Origin: Escherichia phage MLP1
DNA: 51,940 bases
Sequence record: NC_079176
Reading direction: 5' to 3' (one strand)
In this document: positions 23,383 to 28,194 of the stretch, one piece after another
How the letters are laid out: each line of letters opens with the position of its first letter
Numbering within the stretch: the stretch's first letter is position 1
The notes under the pieces: model-generated
Databases searched by the model: none
Seen by the model: only the letters and a program-made list of their open reading frames with translations
Told to the model about the DNA's origin: nothing
Program-made: the position numbers and the translations under genes

Positions 23383-23440
23383 CGATTAAATGGGAGAAGA
23401 GATTCGATGCGTTAGCGTCGTTTCTCTTTGAGCTAGAATA

Positions 23441-23468
23441 AAATAAGTAAGTTTTCAATATTACTTAT
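23441..23468 (+). other. perfect 9-bp-stem hairpin (AATAAGTAA/TTACTTATT)
   Basis: Read directly; 10-nt loop; lies in the gap between nrdB and the RNAP gene. Confidence 0.3.
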
Positions 23469-23537
23469 TCCCAATATTGCTACAATATTTAAAGTAGTAT
23501 TAGGAATGCGTAAAGTTCAAAACCAAGTGGTACATGG

Positions 23538-23591
23538 TCGGTCAACTGTATCTGGACATGGATTCGTTCACAATCGGTCAGCTGTATCTAG
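23538..23591 (+). repeat. direct repeat pair TCGGTCARCTGTATCTRG, spacing 36 bp
   Basis: Copies at 23538-23555 and 23574-23591; palindrome TGTTCGAACA at 23600-23609. Confidence 0.5.
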
Positions 23592-23678
23592 CCGGAATTT
23601 GTTCGAACAGTGGTCCGGCTATGTTATAAAAATTTTTATATAATTTTTTTTTTAATTTTAAATATTGTTACGGAATTA

Positions 23679-23730
23679 ATGAGACTCGAATTGTTTCAAT
23701 ATTAACGAGACTCAATCTGTGACAATATTA
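23679..23730 (+). repeat. tandem imperfect 26-bp direct repeat (about 20/26 identical)
   Basis: atgagactcgaattgtttcaatatta / acgagactcaatctgtgacaatatta, back to back. Confidence 0.5.
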
Positions 23731-23899
23731 TAATTTTATTTTTGGGCCAGCGGGGAGGGGGAAGTTGTGACATTATTATTTTAAAATTTTTATCTCCGAG
23801 GAGGGGAAGCCCAACGTCCTATCGGACTTAAATACGGTCCCTACCCCCAACTTTTTCCTGTAGCCTATCGGCTTTCAAACAACACCAAGTTAGGTAGTG

Positions 23900-23921
23900 G
23901 GTCAAGGTCAAGGTCAAAGTC
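23900..23921 (+). repeat. (GGTCAA)x3 tandem hexamer
   Basis: ggtcaaggtcaaggtcaaagtc read directly. Confidence 0.5.
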
Positions 23922-23955
23922 TCCGTGCTGTGCTAACAATGGCACAGGTTTGTGA

Positions 23956-23972
23956 TATTAGTTGGACGTGAA
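23956..23972 (+). promoter_or_regulatory. copy of recurrent 17-bp motif (tATTAGTTGGAcGTGAA), candidate phage promoter
   Basis: Member of an 8-copy family with consensus CATTAGTTGGATGTGAA, all in + orientation; 67 bp upstream of RNAP start. Confidence 0.4.
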
Positions 23973-24038
23973 TTGTGTAATGGCTACGCTATTATAATCC
24001 GTTTCATTCAAATCATACACAATCTTGGAGACTTACAA

Positions 24039-25979
24039 ATGACTACTATCACTACTCAAACTATCAAATCTGTTGTTCCTGCTATCACTGCTCTGGTATA
24101 CCGTGCCAAAGAGAAGCAGAACTACATGGTTCCACAGACTTGTGCTATTGCTGCCTTAGCCATATTCAAGATGATGACGTCTTTCACGCGTGATGACGTT
24201 ATTCCTGCTATCTCGATGGTTGAACTGGCTTCTGCTTCCATTGCTGATGCCAACCGTTACAACAACGACTTAAAGTCAATGCACTATGTTGACCCAGCTA
24301 TCAACCTCATTGGTTTGGCTAAACACTTCGGTTTCATCACCATGAACGAAGACAAATCGTTCCAGATGACTGATGCGTGGGTTGAACTGGTTACAACCAA
24401 AGATACCTCAGTTCCATTCACTGAGCGGGTAACAACTGAATCTCGTCGTAAGCCTTTCGTTAAGGGTGGCAAAGTTAAGCCATCCAAGACTCTGAAAGCT
24501 GCAATCGAATTCCTGCAAGATACTGAATATCACGTTGATGCAACAATGGTTAAGGTTATCTCTTCCATGTTAGAACAACGTACATTTGGTGGCTTACAGA
24601 TGCCAGAAGCAATCCAGACTGAACTCCATGTTTGGAACAATGCTGTAGCAATGGTTGGTCAGGACACTCTGTTCTCTGACTACTTTGCTGATAACCGTGG
24701 TCGTTTATATCACGTAGCATGTGCTGGTCCTAACCCACAATCATCTGACTTTGCTCGTTGCCTGTATTCCCACAATGTTGAGAACACTGTGAGCAAGTTT
24801 AATGCTGATGGTTCAACAACTCTGGCATACAACATGTTCATGCTTGAGCTGGAAGATATTGCTGGTGGAGACTGGACTTCTGCAAAACGTTTAACTTATG
24901 TTGCACAGAATCCTGCTGGTTCTTTGGCTCGTATGCTGAACATGCCTAAAGGTGAGCGTCCTTCCAAGCCATTCACTTATGTTCGTCTGGCTCTGGATTG
25001 GTTCAAGTTTGAGACTACAGGTGAGTGTGATTCTCGTGTAGGCTTTGGCTTAGATGCTAAATGTTCTGGTACTCAATACTTGGCATTCATTGCTGGTAAC
25101 ATGGAGATGGCTCGTGCAACAGGTCTGGTTGATTCTGAGACTAAAGCATCTGACCCATACCAGTTATCTCTTCGTGAACTGTTGAAGTTATTAGACCGTT
25201 CTTCAATGAAACCATCCGCTGAAATTATGGATGAATTCTTGAATCCGAAAGCTGGTCGTAAGTTTATCAAGACTCCATACATGGCTATTCAATATGGTGG
25301 TGGTAAAGCAGCATTAACTGGTTCTTCTGACTTCATTGCATACATGACAGAAGCTCTCCAGATTCCTATGGAGAAAGCTGATGCATTTGCTGAACTGTGT
25401 GTTGAAGCAATTCATAACGCATTGGGTGCTAAGATTAACATGTTCATTGAGAAAGCTGCTGATGCTGCATACAACCGTTGTGTTGAACTCAACAAAGAGT
25501 ACATCACATATAAGCACACTGATGGTCAAGTTGTAATGAAGCCTTGCTTCCCATCTCGTGATGTTTGTGATGCATTCAGCATTCGTGTTGACTCTCAAAC
25601 TCGTGTCATCTTTGGTCAGATTCAGGAAGAGAAACCTTGGACCATTCGTGAGTCCAATCCGACTAAAGAAGAATTCAAACGTACCTTCGTTGTTAACTAC
25701 ATTCAAGGTATTGACGCATTGGTTGCTCGTACTGTTGCAGTCAAAGCTAAAGAAGCTGGTCTTCGTGGCTTTACTTCAATTCACGACTGTTTCCGTTGCT
25801 GCTTAGCTGATGCTCCACTCATGATGGAAGTAATTCGTTCTGCTTATATTGAAATCTTTGTTAATAATAATCAGTTTGAATCTCTATCTAAGCAACTTGG
25901 TGGCATCAACATGTACCATGAGAACATCGTAACAGAAGAGCTTCTGATGAGCGAACACGCTTACTACTTCTGTCAATAA
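24039..25979 (+). CDS. single-subunit T7-type DNA-dependent RNA polymerase, compact form
   Basis: DAKCSGTQY (T7 motif A DGSCSGIQHF), RKFIKTPYMAIQYGGG (motif B), FTSIHDCF (motif C, T7 IHDSFG); ATG 24039 has GGAG ribosome-binding site; ORF track's upstream start at 23952 has none. Confidence 0.85.
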   Translation: MTTITTQTIKSVVPAITALVYRAKEKQNYMVPQTCAIAALAIFKMMTSFTRDDVIPAISMVELASASIADANRYNNDLKSMHYVDPAINLIGLAKHFGFITMNEDKSFQMTDAWVELVTTKDTSVPFTERVTTESRRKPFVKGGKVKPSKTLKAAIEFLQDTEYHVDATMVKVISSMLEQRTFGGLQMPEAIQTELHVWNNAVAMVGQDTLFSDYFADNRGRLYHVACAGPNPQSSDFARCLYSHNVENTVSKFNADGSTTLAYNMFMLELEDIAGGDWTSAKRLTYVAQNPAGSLARMLNMPKGERPSKPFTYVRLALDWFKFETTGECDSRVGFGLDAKCSGTQYLAFIAGNMEMARATGLVDSETKASDPYQLSLRELLKLLDRSSMKPSAEIMDEFLNPKAGRKFIKTPYMAIQYGGGKAALTGSSDFIAYMTEALQIPMEKADAFAELCVEAIHNALGAKINMFIEKAADAAYNRCVELNKEYITYKHTDGQVVMKPCFPSRDVCDAFSIRVDSQTRVIFGQIQEEKPWTIRESNPTKEEFKRTFVVNYIQGIDALVARTVAVKAKEAGLRGFTSIHDCFRCCLADAPLMMEVIRSAYIEIFVNNNQFESLSKQLGGINMYHENIVTEELLMSEHAYYFCQ

Positions 25980-26020
25980 CATTAATTGGTCAAGGATGAC
26001 CACAAACTTGGAGACTTAAA

Positions 26021-26119
26021 ATGAATACTCAACAAATCAAACAAATCGAAAATTGTTTCAATCCTCACCACACTTGCAGCATGATTGATTTATCTCGTCC
26101 TACAGTGGGGGGAGACTAA
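26021..26119 (+). CDS. small ORF (32 aa), hypothetical
   Basis: Initiation region CTTGGAGACTTAAAATG is near-identical to the RNAP one (CTTGGAGACTTACAAATG). Confidence 0.3.
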   Translation: MNTQQIKQIENCFNPHHTCSMIDLSRPTVGGD

Positions 26120-26227
26120 AGACTTCTTAGAATTGTTGTCAGAATATAAACAAGAGTCGCATGTATTATTGCACGCATTCTTGCATAATTCTGGATATTT
26201 CGATACAGAGATACCGTTCTGATATTT

Positions 26228-26250
26228 GGGAGCTTCGGCTCCCTTTTCTT
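26228..26250 (+). terminator. intrinsic terminator (GGGAGC-UUCG-GCUCCC then UUUUCUU)
   Basis: Perfect 6-bp GC stem, UUCG tetraloop, T-run; read directly. Confidence 0.55.
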
Positions 26251-26275
26251 GTTTCAACTAGTCTTAAGGTTGTAG

Positions 26276-26292
26276 CATTAGTTGCATGTGAA
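26276..26292 (+). promoter_or_regulatory. 17-bp motif copy CATTAGTTGcATGTGAA
   Basis: 24 bp upstream of ATG 26316. Confidence 0.4.
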
Positions 26293-26315
26293 TAACAAAC
26301 AATTTGGAGAATATC

Positions 26316-26480
26316 ATGTTCACAGTTCATTATCAAATAGTCGGCAAGTTTGAGAATTACGAAGAGTGCAATACATTAGCTGAAGCTCGTGCATTTGCTG
26401 CATCTTTAAAAGATACGGTATATGTTGATATTGTAGATGGTGATAAAGAGTATCCACTTGTAGCACCTGCATTACACTGA
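26316..26480 (+). CDS. small hypothetical protein (54 aa)
   Basis: GGAG ribosome-binding site 7 nt upstream; preceded by motif copy. Confidence 0.4.
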   Translation: MFTVHYQIVGKFENYEECNTLAEARAFAASLKDTVYVDIVDGDKEYPLVAPALH

Positions 26481-26531
26481 TTCCCAATATTCGAGCAATA
26501 TTACTGCATGTAGTATTGCTCCGATATTCGA

Positions 26532-26548
26532 CATTAGTTGGATGTGAA
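26532..26548 (+). promoter_or_regulatory. 17-bp motif copy CATTAGTTGGATGTGAA (consensus)
   Basis: Exact consensus. Confidence 0.4.
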
Positions 26549-27412
26549 GTAACAGAATACGGAGAAGTATTCCGCATGTCATGTTGAAATCATTCTAGAA
26601 ACATTTCAGCATGTCAACTAAACACACAGTGTTGTAATGATGTGGCAATCATTGAACTCCCTGTCTTTGGCCAGACAAAGTTCCAGCAACCATGTGTGAA
26701 GTAGGAATATTATTCGAAACTGTTCTTCAACCCAAGCATGTTCACTTGTTTCCAATTGAGCTTCATCTCCTATTATCAAGGCCCACCCACAAGCCGGGAG
26801 ATAACTTTGGCAAGACTGGAACTTTTGGACATGCTTCTTTCTTTCAATCAGAATTCGAAAGAAGAGAAGAGGTCGGACAATATGGCAACAGAGCATCGAG
26901 ATTAGTCTCGTAGCCGCCCCGATTTTGAGCAACAAATATTGTGGCAATATTGTCATAGTATGGCATGTAAATATTGCTACAAATTAGCATGTTAGAATGT
27001 GGCAGAATTGTTAGAGGACTAATCACCTCGAAGATACAATTGTCTACCAATCCGGCATGTTAATTTTGTAACAGTATTTGTGCCAATTTCGCATGTAATA
27101 AATGTATCAATATTCACCCAATATTCTTGCAACCCGCATGAATACTGGCTTCCAGCCAAGCGAAGGCTTTATCATCGCATGTAAATATTGTGACAATATT
27201 GGGATAAAACCCTTTATTTATTTCTGTAGTTTTTGTATTAAATGGTCGGTTTTCCGTACCTGTTGCGCCACTTCTTGATGTGCCAAATACATTCAAGGTG
27301 GGAGTAAACCTGTAATTAATGATGCATGTTTGATTGTGACTAAATTCGTCTATTTGGCAGATGAATTGGTTGCAATTAAGCATGTCCATTTATCATTAGT
27401 TGCATGTGAATA

Positions 27413-27429
27413 AGACCAAATCTCTGTAA
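27413..27429 (+). promoter_or_regulatory. 17-bp motif copy CATTAGTTGcATGTGAA
   Basis: Read directly. Confidence 0.4.
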
Positions 27430-27698
27430 ATTCTGCTGAAATTGTGTGACAGATTTTAGAGAGATTATGTCTCCAAGCTAATCATTGTAGTTTTCGGCAC
27501 TTAATGTGTCACATATATAGCCTGTGAAAAACGTGTGGTTTATTGCTGGATTGCAACGCGCCCACCAGACTAGGAAGTCCATGATGGCGGCACACACAGG
27601 AATACTATATAACTCCCTGATTCTTTAAGGTGGATTAAGGTAATACAAGACCTCCACAATCGTTATGACGGGAGTTTTCTTTTAACTTAGGAGAATAA

Positions 27699-27950
27699 AT
27701 GGATACCATCAACAAACGTGCAAAATTTGCTGACCTGTCAGAAGGTCAAATCTTCACTTACAATTCTATCAAATGTATTAAGGTGGAAGGTGAGTGTGGT
27801 TTATACAACACTGTAAGATTTCATGACTCAAGCCGTGCATGTAAACTTAAAGACAGTGATGTTGTTGAAATTGAAATCGAATTAGAGCCAGATGGTTCAA
27901 ATGATGAAATCATTCTGCGTAAAACTGTTGGATACACTAAAGGATTCTGA
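27699..27950 (+). CDS. hypothetical early protein
   Basis: Strong ribosome-binding site TTAGGAGAATAAATG. Confidence 0.45.
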   Translation: MDTINKRAKFADLSEGQIFTYNSIKCIKVEGECGLYNTVRFHDSSRACKLKDSDVVEIEIELEPDGSNDEIILRKTVGYTKGF

Positions 27951-27951
27951 A

Positions 27952-28194
27952 ATGAATTATGCACTATATCAATATATCAATCGTGATGGTGTTGTTTCTC
28001 ATGCTTTGGTTAATACTAAAACCAGAGCAATAATGTTGGCAGACTTAATGTCTGGTGCATCAATTTACGAAAACAAGCTGGTGTGGAAGAATGCAGCGTA
28101 TCCTGAATACGTTTGGCAAGCAATCCAGAATGACAAACATCACAAAGTTGTGGCAACTGCCGCACATCCAGATTTCCTGAAAGTAAGAGGTTAA
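27952..28194 (+). CDS. hypothetical early protein
   Basis: ATG immediately after upstream stop; track start 27892 overlaps upstream gene. Confidence 0.4.
   Translation: MNYALYQYINRDGVVSHALVNTKTRAIMLADLMSGASIYENKLVWKNAAYPEYVWQAIQNDKHHKVVATAAHPDFLKVRG

What the first reader, a model, noticed from the sequence alone, without database searches (positions are those of the whole stretch)
26481..27698. 1.2-kb ORF-poor region packed with GCATGT and CAATATT motifs
A compact phage rarely leaves 1.2 kb without a gene. The region carries at least 12 GCATGT-(A/T-rich)-TTG units, including two identical GCATGTAAATATTG copies at 26981 and 27196, repeated AATATTG(T/C)GRCAATATTG blocks and TGTGACA elements. 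Candidate roles are a promoter cluster, a replication origin or a set of small RNAs.
Basis: seen in the sequence. Interest (0 to 1): 0.6.

Follow-up and report, generated by a model that had tools for sequence, protein, structure and literature searches.

The report
Large structured RNA after phage RNAP
The 1.2 kb gene-free stretch after this phage's RNA polymerase gene is conserved across a phage family and appears to fold, as plus-strand RNA, into hairpins closed by the repeated GCAUGU motif, which suggests an undescribed large non-coding RNA or leader rather than a promoter cluster.

Summary
GCATGT occurs 12 times on the + strand in 26481-27698, 24 times in the whole window, and only once there on the other strand. 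The window is a phiEcoM-GJ1-like phage (Chaseviridae).

A 1.0-1.5 kb gene-free gap follows the RNA polymerase gene in all 20 relatives examined. It aligns between genera about as well as the RNAP gene, while the neighbouring early genes do not align at all. No reading frame is conserved and no Rfam family matches.

The repeats are best explained at the RNA level. GCAUGU pairs with a second GCAUGU (G.U, C-G, A-U, U-A, G-C, U.G) at the base of conserved hairpins. Two hairpins (26962-27096 and 27324-27385) and a 7-bp loop-loop pairing (27282-88 with 27352-58) carry compensatory changes across 8-17 genomes. G.U pairs heavily favour the + strand.

Two previously predicted phage-RNAP promoters (26532, 27394) and terminator-like hairpins bracket the region. 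The terminal-repeat boundary of relatives maps inside it (about 26870-26880).

My reading is a large structured non-coding RNA or 5' leader of the first phage-RNAP operon, with an unknown partner. An origin or packaging role for parts of the region is not excluded. Transcription itself is inferred, not shown.

The parts
26228..26251 (+). Terminator-like hairpin plus T tract. It ends the RNAP/gp2 transcription unit just upstream of the region (context).
   Evidence: GGGAGCTTCGGCTCCC TTTTCTTG. The equivalent element in phiA050 is at L010 2987-3004.
26476..26538 (+). Imperfect 29-nt-arm palindrome or hairpin with GCATG (26506) at its apex. It contains AATATT-N5-AATATT and overlaps the 5' half of P1.
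   Evidence: I1. The arms differ between lineages but stay complementary (alignment). Read by eye, not scored.
26532..26548 (+). P1, CATTAGTTGGATGTGAA. A copy of the dispersed 17-nt motif annotated in phiEcoM-GJ1 as 'putative phage promoter 1'. It is the likely start of the structured transcript (inferred).
   Evidence: 9 copies, all on the + strand, against 0.59 expected. Eight of 9 are intergenic. The site is conserved at this position in 11 lineages. PYps23T's published repeat end falls inside it.
26574..26615 (+). Hairpin in which GCAUGU (26574) can pair with GCAUGU (26609).
   Evidence: (I3). The pairing is consistent in 6 lineages but shows no compensatory change, so it is inconclusive.
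26654..26684 (+). Conserved hairpin GAACUCCCUG...CAAAGUUCC.
   Evidence: Equally good on both strands.
26734..26836 (+). Domain closed by GCAUGU (26736) paired with the only ACAUGC (26829), and by GUUUCCA/UGGAAC. It encloses block B1.
   Evidence: 84% paired against 18-48% for slid controls, with two compensatory changes. The statistics are weak.
26768..26799 (+). B1, the near-invariant unique block TCCTATTATCAAGGCCCACCCACAAGCCGGGA, held in a loop closed by a covarying stem (NNNUCC/GGGANNN).
   Evidence: pair 41-78: AU 6, UA 3, GC 1, none broken.
26834..26880 (.). Inverted repeat CTTCTTTCTTTC...GAAAGAAGAGAAG, followed by AGGTCGGACA. The right boundary of the long direct terminal repeat of relatives maps here.
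   Evidence: Mangalitsa 3234 corresponds to 26869|26870, and 4HA13 3120 to about 26879|26880. The Faunus record starts at the same point. and one search give the PhageTerm annotations, and one search gives the ICTV statement of about 3-kb repeats. Placed by homology only.
26935..26951 (.). 17-bp near-palindrome AATATTGTGGCAATATT.
26962..27096 (+). H1, a long nested hairpin. GCAUGU (26987) pairs with GCAUGU (27055). UGUGGCA pairs with UACCA. Inner stems are UUGU/ACAA and GAGG/CCUC. An outer clamp is formed from the 26963 copy.
   Evidence: 91% paired against 33-43% for slid controls, 15 pairs with changes on both sides against 1-5, and 0 of 500 shuffles reaching the observed values; 57 G.U against 5 A.C; 143.9 bits on the + strand against 22.3 on the - strand, and orthologues in all Cleopatravirinae loci searched; the pair forms in 9 of 9 single-sequence folds.
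27177..27204 (+). 'Master' site GCATGTAAATATTGTGACAATATTGGGA, which contains the perfect palindrome AATATTGT-G-ACAATATT (27184-27200).
   Evidence: Nearly invariant in 5 genera. A 23-nt inverted copy lies at 23469-23491 (I2).
27205..27243 (+). A/T-rich stretch, T-rich on the + strand. It is conserved in character, not in sequence.
27274..27297 (+). H2b hairpin with loop GCCAAAU (27282-27288).
27324..27385 (+). H3 hairpin. GCAUGU (27324) pairs with GCAUGU (27380). UUGUGAC pairs with GUUGCAA through tandem G.U pairs. The 8-bp apical stem closes the invariant loop AUUUGGC (27352-27358), which is complementary to the H2b loop.
   Evidence: 94% paired against 40-57% for slid controls, and all 8 pairs carry compensatory changes; the 7-bp loop-loop helix is 100% paired in 10 lineages with 2 compensatory positions. 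extend this to 17 of 17 genomes; 15 G.U against 0 A.C.
27394..27414 (+). P2, CATTAGTTGCATGTGAATAAG (phiEcoM-GJ1 'putative phage promoter 2'). It contains the 27402 GCATGT copy.
27445..27514 (+). Conserved block ending in TTYGGCAC-N6-TGTCACAT. It is present in all 12 aligned genomes and its role is unknown.
27612..27683 (+). Long hairpin ACUCCC...GGGAGU followed by UUUUCUUUU, 4 nt before the ribosome-binding site of the first early gene (ATG at 27699). It could be a terminator, an attenuator or a processing site.
   Evidence: Simple terminator-like equivalents occupy the same position in phiA050, Faunus and PM1.

Best explanation
The gap is a conserved non-coding element that works mainly as plus-strand RNA. 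It would be a large structured leader or non-coding RNA sitting between the RNA polymerase unit and the early genes.

Shown:
- The DNA is under purifying selection without encoding protein.
- It folds into hairpins whose bases are GCAUGU:GCAUGU helices with a G.U wobble at both ends. This pairing alone explains why one hexamer recurs 12 times on one strand.
- Two hairpins and a 7-bp loop-loop (kissing) contact are maintained by compensatory changes across genera.

Inferred:
- Transcription starts at the predicted phage-RNAP promoter P1 (26532), with a second entry at P2 (27394).
- It runs to the hairpin plus U tract at 27612-27690, just before the first early gene.
- Because the hexamer never varies although other pairs would fit, the clamped helices are probably recognised by a factor. 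That factor is most likely phage-encoded, since the other subfamily uses GUAUGA or GUGUGA on the same host genus.
- The RNA then either controls read-through and stability of the first phage-RNAP operon in cis, or acts as a stable RNA in trans.

The terminal-repeat boundary also lies inside the element.
For: Family and context. The window matches phiEcoM-GJ1-like Chaseviridae. A 1.0-1.5 kb gene-free gap follows the RNAP gene in every relative examined, including the distant Nefertitivirinae.

Constraint. The gap aligns between genera over 36-88% of its length at about 70% identity for four genera (8% for Proteus PA_03). This is close to the RNAP gene, whereas the early genes align over 0-5%. 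It is a mosaic of near-invariant blocks.

Not coding. Translated similarity comes as short patches in all six frames.

RNA structure.
- H1: 91% paired against 33-43% for slid controls, 15 pairs with double changes against 1-5, and 0 of 500 shuffles.
- H3 apical stem: 94% paired against 40-57%, with all 8 pairs compensatory.
- Kissing loop: 100% paired in 10 lineages, with three haplotypes GCCAAAU/AUUUGGC, GCCAAUU/AAUUGGC and GCCGAUU/AAUCGGC.

Strand. G.U against A.C counts are 57:5 and 15:0. RNAalifold energy is -19.9 on the + strand against -11.6 on the - strand. The covariance model scores 143.9 against 22.3 bits.

Hexamer pairing. Orthologous GCAUGU pairs form in 9 of 9 and 8 of 9 independent single-sequence folds, and 4-10 of 9-14 hexamers pair with another hexamer.

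Bracketing signals. Terminator-like hairpins lie at both ends, and predicted phage promoters lie at conserved positions.

Lineage tracking. Aeromonas phages phiA050 (GCATGT) and pAh6-C (GTATGA) infect the same host species.
Against: - There is no expression data. Transcription, the 5' and 3' ends, and the promoter status of P1 and P2 are all inferred, and ICTV states that Chaseviridae promoters have not been identified.
- Several proposed helices are weak. The 26574/26609 pair shows no covariation, and the long-range 26747/26821 helix does not beat the shuffles.
- The structures were predicted on the + strand, which biases the G.U count in its favour.
- The perfect AATATT palindromes, which also occur upstream of the RNAP gene, look like DNA sites. 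So do the T-rich tract and the repeat boundary.
- The B1 hairpin is longer on the - strand.
- In the Nefertitivirinae the repeated hexamer is only weakly self-complementary, so pairing may not be the whole reason for the repeats.
- The biological function is a guess.
Confidence: 0.65

Rival explanations
1. A tandem array of promoters for the phage single-subunit RNA polymerase. Each GCATGT-N5/6-TGTGACA unit would be a weak 'class I' promoter related to the dispersed CATTAGTTGSATGTGAA motif. The array would load many polymerases in front of the early genes, as phi1.1A, phi1.1B and phi1.3 cluster after T7 gene 1.
For: The motif is strand-specific in the direction of all genes. The unit is 18 nt and bipartite, the size of a T7-type promoter, and resembles GTGACA in the SP6 promoter (the SP6 comparison is from my own knowledge). 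It shares CAT...TGTGA with the dispersed motif. The motif changes with the phage lineage, as promoter specificity would. In pAh6-C, gene-proximal sites share the GTATG core.
Against: Nothing upstream of GCATGT is conserved, whereas T7-type recognition lies upstream of the start. Copies lie as little as 22-25 nt apart. The bipartite unit is absent from the rest of the genome, where genes need promoters. The variable base of box 2 changes together with a distant complementary base (GC 4, AU 3, CG 1). This fits pairing, not polymerase recognition.
Confidence: 0.1
2. A replication origin of the T7 type. Phage promoters plus an A/T-rich unwinding region sit directly downstream of the RNAP gene, possibly with the repeats as iterons for a phage initiator and with host DnaA involved. 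This is compatible with the RNA reading if the structured transcript primes DNA synthesis, as ColE1 RNA II does.
For: The position matches the T7 primary origin (own knowledge). P1 and P2 flank a conserved master site followed by a T-rich stretch at 27205-27243. Five oriented repeats lie in 230 bp. Three of the five relaxed DnaA boxes in the window lie here. The phage has T7-like replication genes.
Against: Repeat spacing is irregular (24, 68, 36, 45 and 41 nt), and the repeats pair with each other as RNA. Two of the DnaA-like boxes are simply part of the duplicated promoter motif. Cumulative GC skew shows no turning point. No initiator gene is known, and there are no replication data.
Confidence: 0.15
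3. Signals for cutting and packaging concatemers or for genome entry. These would be terminase or accessory-protein binding sites flanking the terminal repeat, comparable with the short-repeat arrays beside the T7 terminal repeat or the repeat-rich injection-stop region at the inner end of the T5 repeat.
For: The repeat boundary of Mangalitsa, 4HA13 and Faunus maps to 26869-26880 inside the region. TCGGAC precedes both boundaries. AATATT palindromes lie outside both boundaries (23456-23777 and 26935-27200), including a 23-nt inverted pair about 310-340 bp from each boundary.
Against: Most conserved blocks and all the covarying helices lie 50-500 nt away from the boundary and behave as RNA. The upstream palindrome was found only within Carltongylesvirus. 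The boundary is transferred from other genomes, and PYps23T reports a different one.
Confidence: 0.1
4. Unannotated small protein genes. Public records annotate ORFs here, for example PYps23T ORF002-005 and Y2 gp02-gp04.
For: Mechanical ORFs of 58-112 aa exist on both strands, and some records annotate them.
Against: No ORF is kept across genera. Similarity appears in all six frames as 10-48-aa patches. Most records annotate nothing here. Several annotated ORFs start at the ATG inside GCATGT without a ribosome-binding site.
Confidence: 0.03

Closest known systems
Large ornate phage- or bacterium-associated RNAs (GOLLD, ROOL, OLE; PMC12286853)
   Same: Several hundred nucleotides of non-coding sequence with many covarying helices and loop-loop contacts. 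Often carried by phages. Function unknown.
   Different: No match to any of the 4227 Rfam models. The transcript limits are unknown. The repeated GCAUGU wobble clamp is not a feature I know from those RNAs. Oligomerisation has not been tested. This element lies between promoters and the first early gene, so it may be a leader rather than a free RNA.
T7 early/class II junction: the promoters phi1.1A and phi1.1B and the primary origin just after gene 1, and the RNase III hairpin before the first early gene (own knowledge)
   Same: The same genomic position (directly after the single-subunit RNAP gene). Phage promoters, an A/T-rich stretch, and a large hairpin immediately before the first downstream gene.
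   Different: The T7 region is about 200 bp and has no array of pairing hexamers or kissing loops. Here the non-coding tract is 1.2 kb and conserved at family level.
Cis-acting leader RNAs that act on the transcribing polymerase (HK022 put, lambda nut; own knowledge)
   Same: Structured RNA encoded downstream of an early promoter and upstream of a terminator.
   Different: Those elements are about 70 nt and act on host RNAP. There is no sequence or structural similarity, and no evidence here of antitermination.
phi29 pRNA (own knowledge)
   Same: A phage RNA encoded near a genome end, with two complementary loops that covary between relatives.
   Different: pRNA is 120-174 nt and belongs to protein-primed phages without a standard terminase. 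No homology. Here the complementary loops are 63 nt apart in one transcript and may pair within the molecule.
Repeat arrays beside terminal repeats (T7 SRL/SRR; T5 injection-stop region; own knowledge)
   Same: A gene-free, repeat-rich stretch at the inner edge of a long direct terminal repeat.
   Different: Those are thought to act as DNA. Here the repeats show RNA-type covariation and G.U bias.

Membership tests
Any Rfam 15 family | Score at or above the family's gathering threshold | tested here: not met
   No hits at gathering threshold over the whole window. With a permissive E-value only two chance-level hits appeared, SNORD34 and mir-7131 at E about 0.5. No tRNA or tmRNA.
Structured non-coding RNA (generic) | Helices maintained by compensatory changes beyond the controls | tested here: met
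   H1, H3 apical stem and the loop-loop helix. In each case 0 of 500 shuffles reached the observed values, and the structures were 91-97% paired against 33-57% for slid controls.
Structured non-coding RNA (generic) | Strand asymmetry (G.U rather than A.C) | tested here: met
   57:5 and 15:0. 143.9 against 22.3 bits. E+ -19.9 against E- -11.6.
Structured non-coding RNA (generic) | The region is transcribed | not testable with these tools
   No expression data. Full-text searches found no transcript mapping for Chaseviridae.
Large ornate RNAs (GOLLD/ROOL/OLE kind) | A single transcript over 500 nt with complex conserved architecture, and homo-oligomerisation | tested here: inconclusive
   Conserved structured blocks span about 26570-27400. 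However, the ends are unknown, an internal promoter motif and a T-rich tract may divide it, and oligomerisation cannot be tested.
T7-type phage-RNAP promoter (the dispersed 17-nt motif) | A long conserved motif, in one orientation only, intergenic and upstream of gene blocks | tested here: met
   Nine copies, all on the + strand, against 0.59 expected. Eight of 9 lie between + strand ORFs. Two lie inside the finding. Initiation there is untested.
T7-type phage-RNAP promoter (applied to the 12 GCATGT copies) | Conserved recognition sequence upstream of the start, and use elsewhere in the genome | tested here: not met
   No information upstream of GCATGT. The bipartite unit is confined to the gap.
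Sigma-70 promoter cluster | An excess of -35/-10 matches on the coding strand, conserved in relatives | tested here: not met
   13 against 16.5 expected in the window. 3 against 3.6, 4 against 2.1 and 2 against 3.5 in three relatives. The candidate -10 elements are not conserved (and sequences read).
Iteron-type replication origin | Regularly spaced direct repeats of 17-22 bp next to an A/T-rich region, with DnaA/IHF sites | tested here: inconclusive
   Oriented repeats and a T-rich tract are present, but the spacing is irregular and the repeats pair as RNA. There are three relaxed DnaA boxes and no IHF consensus.
Protein-coding gene | A reading frame kept across homologues | tested here: not met
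Boundary of the Chaseviridae long direct terminal repeat | A physical genome end at this position | not testable with these tools
   Transferred by alignment from the PhageTerm annotations of Mangalitsa and 4HA13. PYps23T's published 2,339-bp repeat gives a different point, 26542|26543. No reads are available for this genome.

The most novel reading that the evidence does not exclude
Chaseviridae phages carry a previously undescribed large (about 0.8-1.1 kb) ornate non-coding RNA. It is built from paralogous hairpin modules clamped by wobble-palindromic GCAUGU:GCAUGU helices and tied together by a covarying kissing loop. It would be made by the phage's own RNA polymerase immediately after that enzyme appears. 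It would act in trans by binding a phage or host factor, or by assembling into a higher-order RNA particle as ROOL and GOLLD do, rather than merely as an mRNA leader.
Probability: 0.3. Interest if true: 0.85.

Novelty: new variant of a known kind. Interest (0 to 1): 0.68.

Why it matters
Chaseviridae are common coliphage, Erwinia and Aeromonas phages that are being developed for biocontrol, yet their transcription programme is unknown; ICTV says their promoters have not been identified.

This work turns an apparently empty 1.2 kb into a defined, testable element with named helices, a kissing loop that offers ready-made compensatory mutants, candidate start and stop signals, and the repeat boundary inside it. 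If the RNA is made, it adds a new family to the short list of very large structured RNAs carried by phages, all of which still lack a function, and this one sits in a culturable E. coli phage where genetics is easy.

It also flags the small ORFs annotated in this gap in several GenBank records as likely false, and shows that a strand-specific hexamer array can be the trace of RNA wobble pairing rather than of protein-binding sites.

Tried and rejected
- Sigma-70 promoter reading. I tested GTGACA as a -35 element and TGTGACAAT as an extended -10. No conserved partner element lies at the right spacing in any lineage, and the scans show no excess.
- Sigma-54 reading. Neither TGTCACA-N5-ACATGC nor the conserved TTTGGCAC-N6-TGTCACAT fits: the GG/GC spacing and the -12 GC do not match (sequence inspection).
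- CRP, TyrR, Fur and ArgR-type operators for the AATATT and TGTGACA palindromes. No consensus fits (inspection only).
- Hidden genes. Rejected by the six-frame comparison. Pfam and PHROGs scans of the neighbouring small proteins gave no DNA- or RNA-binding candidate.
- A brute-force PHIRE-like motif search timed out and was replaced by k-mer counts.
- RNAalifold on rough MAFFT cuts of several segments found little, because indels misaligned them. The 26574/26609 hairpin and the 26747/26821 helix stayed weak.
- The H1 covariance model found no match in Nefertitivirinae loci. A B1-like element there is only a lead.
- A scan of viral contigs for the master site added only one new lineage.
- The phiEcoM-GJ1 paper itself could not be read.
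Full report
**What the window is.** Megablast of 26000-28000 finds 58 phage records, led by Yersinia phage PYps23T, the Escherichia 'TH' viruses, vB_EcoM_SA91KD, Mangalitsa and phiEcoM-GJ1. These belong to the genus Carltongylesvirus, family Chaseviridae (annotations). The ORF ending at 25979 is the single-subunit RNA polymerase, whose true start is at 24039. The finding covers the gene-free stretch between the RNAP/gp2 block (plus a 54-aa ORF at 26316-26480) and the first small early gene (ATG at 27699).

**The observation.** GCATGT occurs 24 times on the + strand of the window. Twelve copies lie inside 26481-27698 and 14 inside 26100-27700, against a single ACATGC there.
- The AATATTGTGRCAATATTG blocks are at 26935 and 27184. 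TGTGACA is at 27189 and 27445.
- The fuller form of the repeat is GCATGT-N5/6-TGTGRCA. In the window this form is confined to this gap.
- Mechanical ORFs of up to 112 aa exist, but a six-frame comparison of six genera gives only short patches in every frame and on both strands. This is the signature of DNA-level conservation, not of a gene.

**A family-wide feature.** Every relative examined keeps a 1.0-1.5 kb gap without credible genes directly after the RNAP gene.
- Cleopatravirinae: 4HA13, Y2, SSEM1, PM1, PP101, Faunus, PA_03, Fifi44, EaPF9, Berlingot and Aioli, plus phiA050, whose record gives no family assignment.
- Nefertitivirinae: VPs20, pAh6-C and Spp001, whose RNAP is only about 35% identical.

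In 12 Cleopatravirinae-type genomes infecting Escherichia, Yersinia, Erwinia, Pantoea, Pectobacterium, Proteus or Aeromonas, GCATGT is the first or second commonest hexamer of the gap, with 9-15 copies on the + strand and 0-3 on the reverse strand. The Nefertitivirinae gaps carry a different strand-specific hexamer: GTATGA (7 forward, 0 reverse) or GTGTGA (8 forward, 0 reverse). phiA050 and pAh6-C both infect Aeromonas hydrophila, so the motif follows the phage lineage and not the host.

The gap aligns between genera over 36-88% of its length at about 70% identity for four genera. Only 8% aligns for the most distant, Proteus PA_03. This is comparable with the RNAP gene (99-100% at 70-76%), whereas the adjacent early genes align over 0-5%. 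The alignments show a mosaic of near-invariant blocks.

**What the repeats do.** Folding 26955-27300 as RNA gives a z-score of -2.6, and no shuffle does as well. The main feature is a long hairpin in which GCAUGU at 26987 pairs with GCAUGU at 27055. The hexamer is self-complementary if the two end pairs are G.U wobbles.

On eight lineages the consensus structure is 91% paired against 33-43% when partners are slid. It has 15 pairs with changes on both sides against 1-5, and no shuffle out of 500 reaches the observed values. The variable base of 'box 2' (UGUG-G/A/C-CA) changes together with a base 45 nt downstream (GC 4, AU 3, CG 1, none broken). The inner stems UUGU/ACAA and GAGG/CCUC also covary.

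A second hairpin (27324-27385) has the same plan:
- GCAUGU against GCAUGU at its base.
- UUGUGAC against GUUGCAA, with tandem G.U pairs.
- An 8-bp apical stem in which every pair shows compensatory change (94% paired against 40-57%).
- An invariant loop, AUUUGGC.

That loop is the exact complement of the loop GCCAAAU of a smaller hairpin 63 nt upstream (27274-27297). The complementarity holds in 17 of 17 genomes, through three haplotypes: GCCAAAU/AUUUGGC, GCCAAUU/AAUUGGC in PM1 and PP101, and GCCGAUU/AAUCGGC in PA_03. Scored formally, it is 100% paired with two compensatory positions.

Block B1 (26768-26799) is unique in the genome. It sits in a loop closed by a covarying stem, inside a weaker long-range helix.

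Independent single-sequence folds of nine lineages pair the orthologous hexamers 26987/27055 in 9 of 9 cases and 27324/27380 in 8 of 9. They show a nested outer clamp in four lineages, and 4-10 of the 9-14 hexamers pair with another hexamer. A covariance model of the first hairpin recovers orthologues in every Cleopatravirinae locus searched, including seven not used to build it. It also hits the second hairpin weakly, which suggests paralogous modules.

**Which strand and which molecule.** G.U pairs outnumber A.C pairs 57 to 5 in the first hairpin and 15 to 0 in the second. The alignment folds better on the + strand (-19.9 against -11.6), and the model scores 143.9 bits on the + strand against 22.3 on the - strand. 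About a fifth of the pairs are wobbles, and loops contact each other. This fits RNA far better than duplex DNA or DNA hairpins. The caveat is that the structures were predicted on the + strand, which inflates the G.U count somewhat.

No Rfam family matches. Full-text searches found no description of this array or of any Chaseviridae transcript map. ICTV states that the promoters of the family have not been identified.

**Signals around it.** The 17-nt motif CATTAGTTGSATGTGAA was annotated as a putative phage promoter in phiEcoM-GJ1 and SA91KD. It occurs nine times in the window, always on the + strand, against 0.59 expected. Eight of the nine copies lie between + strand ORFs.
- Two copies lie inside the finding, at positions conserved across genera: P1 at 26532 and P2 at 27394. 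A third, at 26276, serves the 54-aa ORF.
- A terminator-like hairpin closes the RNAP unit at 26228-26251.
- A hairpin followed by a U tract lies 4 nt before the ribosome-binding site of the first early gene (27612-27690). Simple terminator-like equivalents occupy this position in phiA050, Faunus and PM1.
- Sigma-70-like promoters are never in excess.

The simplest reading, which is an inference, is that the phage RNAP starts at P1, transcribes about 1.1 kb of structured RNA, and either stops at or reads through the final hairpin into the early genes.

**Terminal repeat.** Chaseviridae genomes have direct terminal repeats of about 3 kb. The left ends of Mangalitsa, 4HA13, Y2 and PM1 all begin at (T)TAAATACGGTCCC, which is window 23828. 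The annotated right boundaries of Mangalitsa and 4HA13 map to 26869-26880, and the Faunus record starts at the same point. The repeat therefore ends inside the finding, between the B1 domain and the first long hairpin, just after an inverted repeat (26834-26869). TCGGAC precedes both boundaries.

PYps23T's published 2,339-bp repeat ends instead at ATTAGTTGGA|TGTGAA inside P1 (26542|26543), and it begins at the same position of a diverged copy of the motif (23966|23967). Since that junction was obtained by PCR after ligation, recombination between the two motif copies is a possible artefact. I cannot decide between the two maps.

**Mechanism and confidence.** I put about 0.65 on the statement that the region acts chiefly as a plus-strand structured RNA whose GCAUGU clamps explain the repeat array. 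Within that, the function is open.

The hexamer is invariant in both arms even though GCAUGC or ACAUGU would pair as well or better. This suggests that the wobble-flanked helix itself is recognised, and the lineage-specific motif suggests a phage-encoded reader. I rank a cis-acting leader controlling read-through or stability of the first phage-RNAP operon slightly above a trans-acting stable RNA (about 0.3).

Parts of the region probably also work as DNA. These include the perfect palindrome AATATTGT-G-ACAATATT, whose copies also lie upstream of the RNAP gene, the T-rich tract, three relaxed DnaA boxes, and the repeat boundary. A T7-like origin (0.15) or packaging signals (0.1) therefore remain open and are not exclusive of the RNA reading. 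A tandem promoter array (0.1) is disfavoured because nothing upstream of GCATGT is conserved, copies can be 22 nt apart, and box 2 covaries with a distant partner.

**Novelty.** The two promoter motifs were already annotated by others. The family-wide conservation of the gap, the RNA hairpins, the kissing loop and the pairing explanation of the GCATGT array appear not to have been described. It is a new RNA family of a known general kind (large structured phage RNAs or leaders) with an unusual building principle.

Noticed in passing
window 23828-23841 and 26834-26880: The probable physical genome ends. Four relatives start at (T)TAAATACGGTCCC (window 23828), and the right repeat boundary maps to 26869-26880. 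TCGGAC immediately precedes both points, and each is preceded by a short inverted repeat. This may be the terminase cutting motif.
   Followed up: partly
window 23956-23972 and 26532-26548; L004/L005 (PYps23T): PYps23T's experimentally reported 2,339-bp terminal repeat begins and ends at the same position of the same 16-nt promoter-like motif (ATTAGTTGGA|YGTGAA). This conflicts with the roughly 3-kb repeats of four relatives. Either the ends differ between phages, or the ligation-PCR junction arose by recombination between the two motif copies.
   Followed up: partly
window 26021-26222 (G run within 26105-26116): The 66-aa gp2 homologue (Mangalitsa_002, PYps23T ORF001, phrog_20790) is split into two ORFs here by one extra G in a G run. 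This is either a sequencing error at a homopolymer or a real frameshift.
   Followed up: partly
window 26266-26530: The 54-aa ORF (26316-26480) with its own copy of the promoter-like motif (26276) is absent from PYps23T, where gp2 is followed directly by P1. It looks like a moron-type insertion.
   Followed up: partly
window about 27515-27611: A roughly 95-nt segment between the conserved ...TGTCACAT block and the final hairpin is present only in the window and in PYps23T among the aligned genomes. Its origin is unknown.
   Followed up: no
window 23385-24038: A second non-coding region lies upstream of the RNAP gene. It has CAATATT palindromes 11 bp apart, TGTGACAATATT twice, long A/T runs and G-rich runs. 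The element at 23469-23491 is a 23-nt inverted copy (91%) of 27182-27204. The two copies lie about 340 and 310 bp outside the two repeat boundaries. The upstream copy was found only in Carltongylesvirus.
   Followed up: partly
window 26287, 27405, 27523 (- strand): Three of the five relaxed DnaA-box matches (TTWTNCACA) in the window lie here. Two of them are part of the GCATGTGAATAA form of the promoter-like motif.
   Followed up: no
window 26776-26799 (- strand); L010 3298-3313, L008 2578-2593: Read on the - strand, block B1 is a terminator-like hairpin (GGCTTGTGGGTGGGCC plus TTTATTATAG) with three G.U pairs that are A.C mismatches on the + strand. This is the opposite bias to the other helices and is unexplained.
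   Followed up: no
L014 2158-3201, L015 5142-6265, L016 5274-6579: Nefertitivirinae have an analogous gap with GTATGA or GTGTGA arrays (bipartite GTATGA-N3-TGTAG). In pAh6-C, CGUAUG pairs with CGUAUG through wobbles, and GGCTCT..GAGCCACAAG is repeated four times, which recalls the ...CCACAAGCC of B1. Homology with the window's element was not detectable with the H1 model.
   Followed up: partly
L013 2791-3110 (Proteus phage PA_03): A 207-bp tandem duplication of the unit that contains a GCATGT site and block B1.
   Followed up: no
L004 2573-3698, L007 2485-3025, L012 2411-2961: Public records annotate small hypothetical proteins inside this gap, and several start at the ATG of GCATGT. None is conserved, so they are probably false gene calls.
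   Followed up: yes
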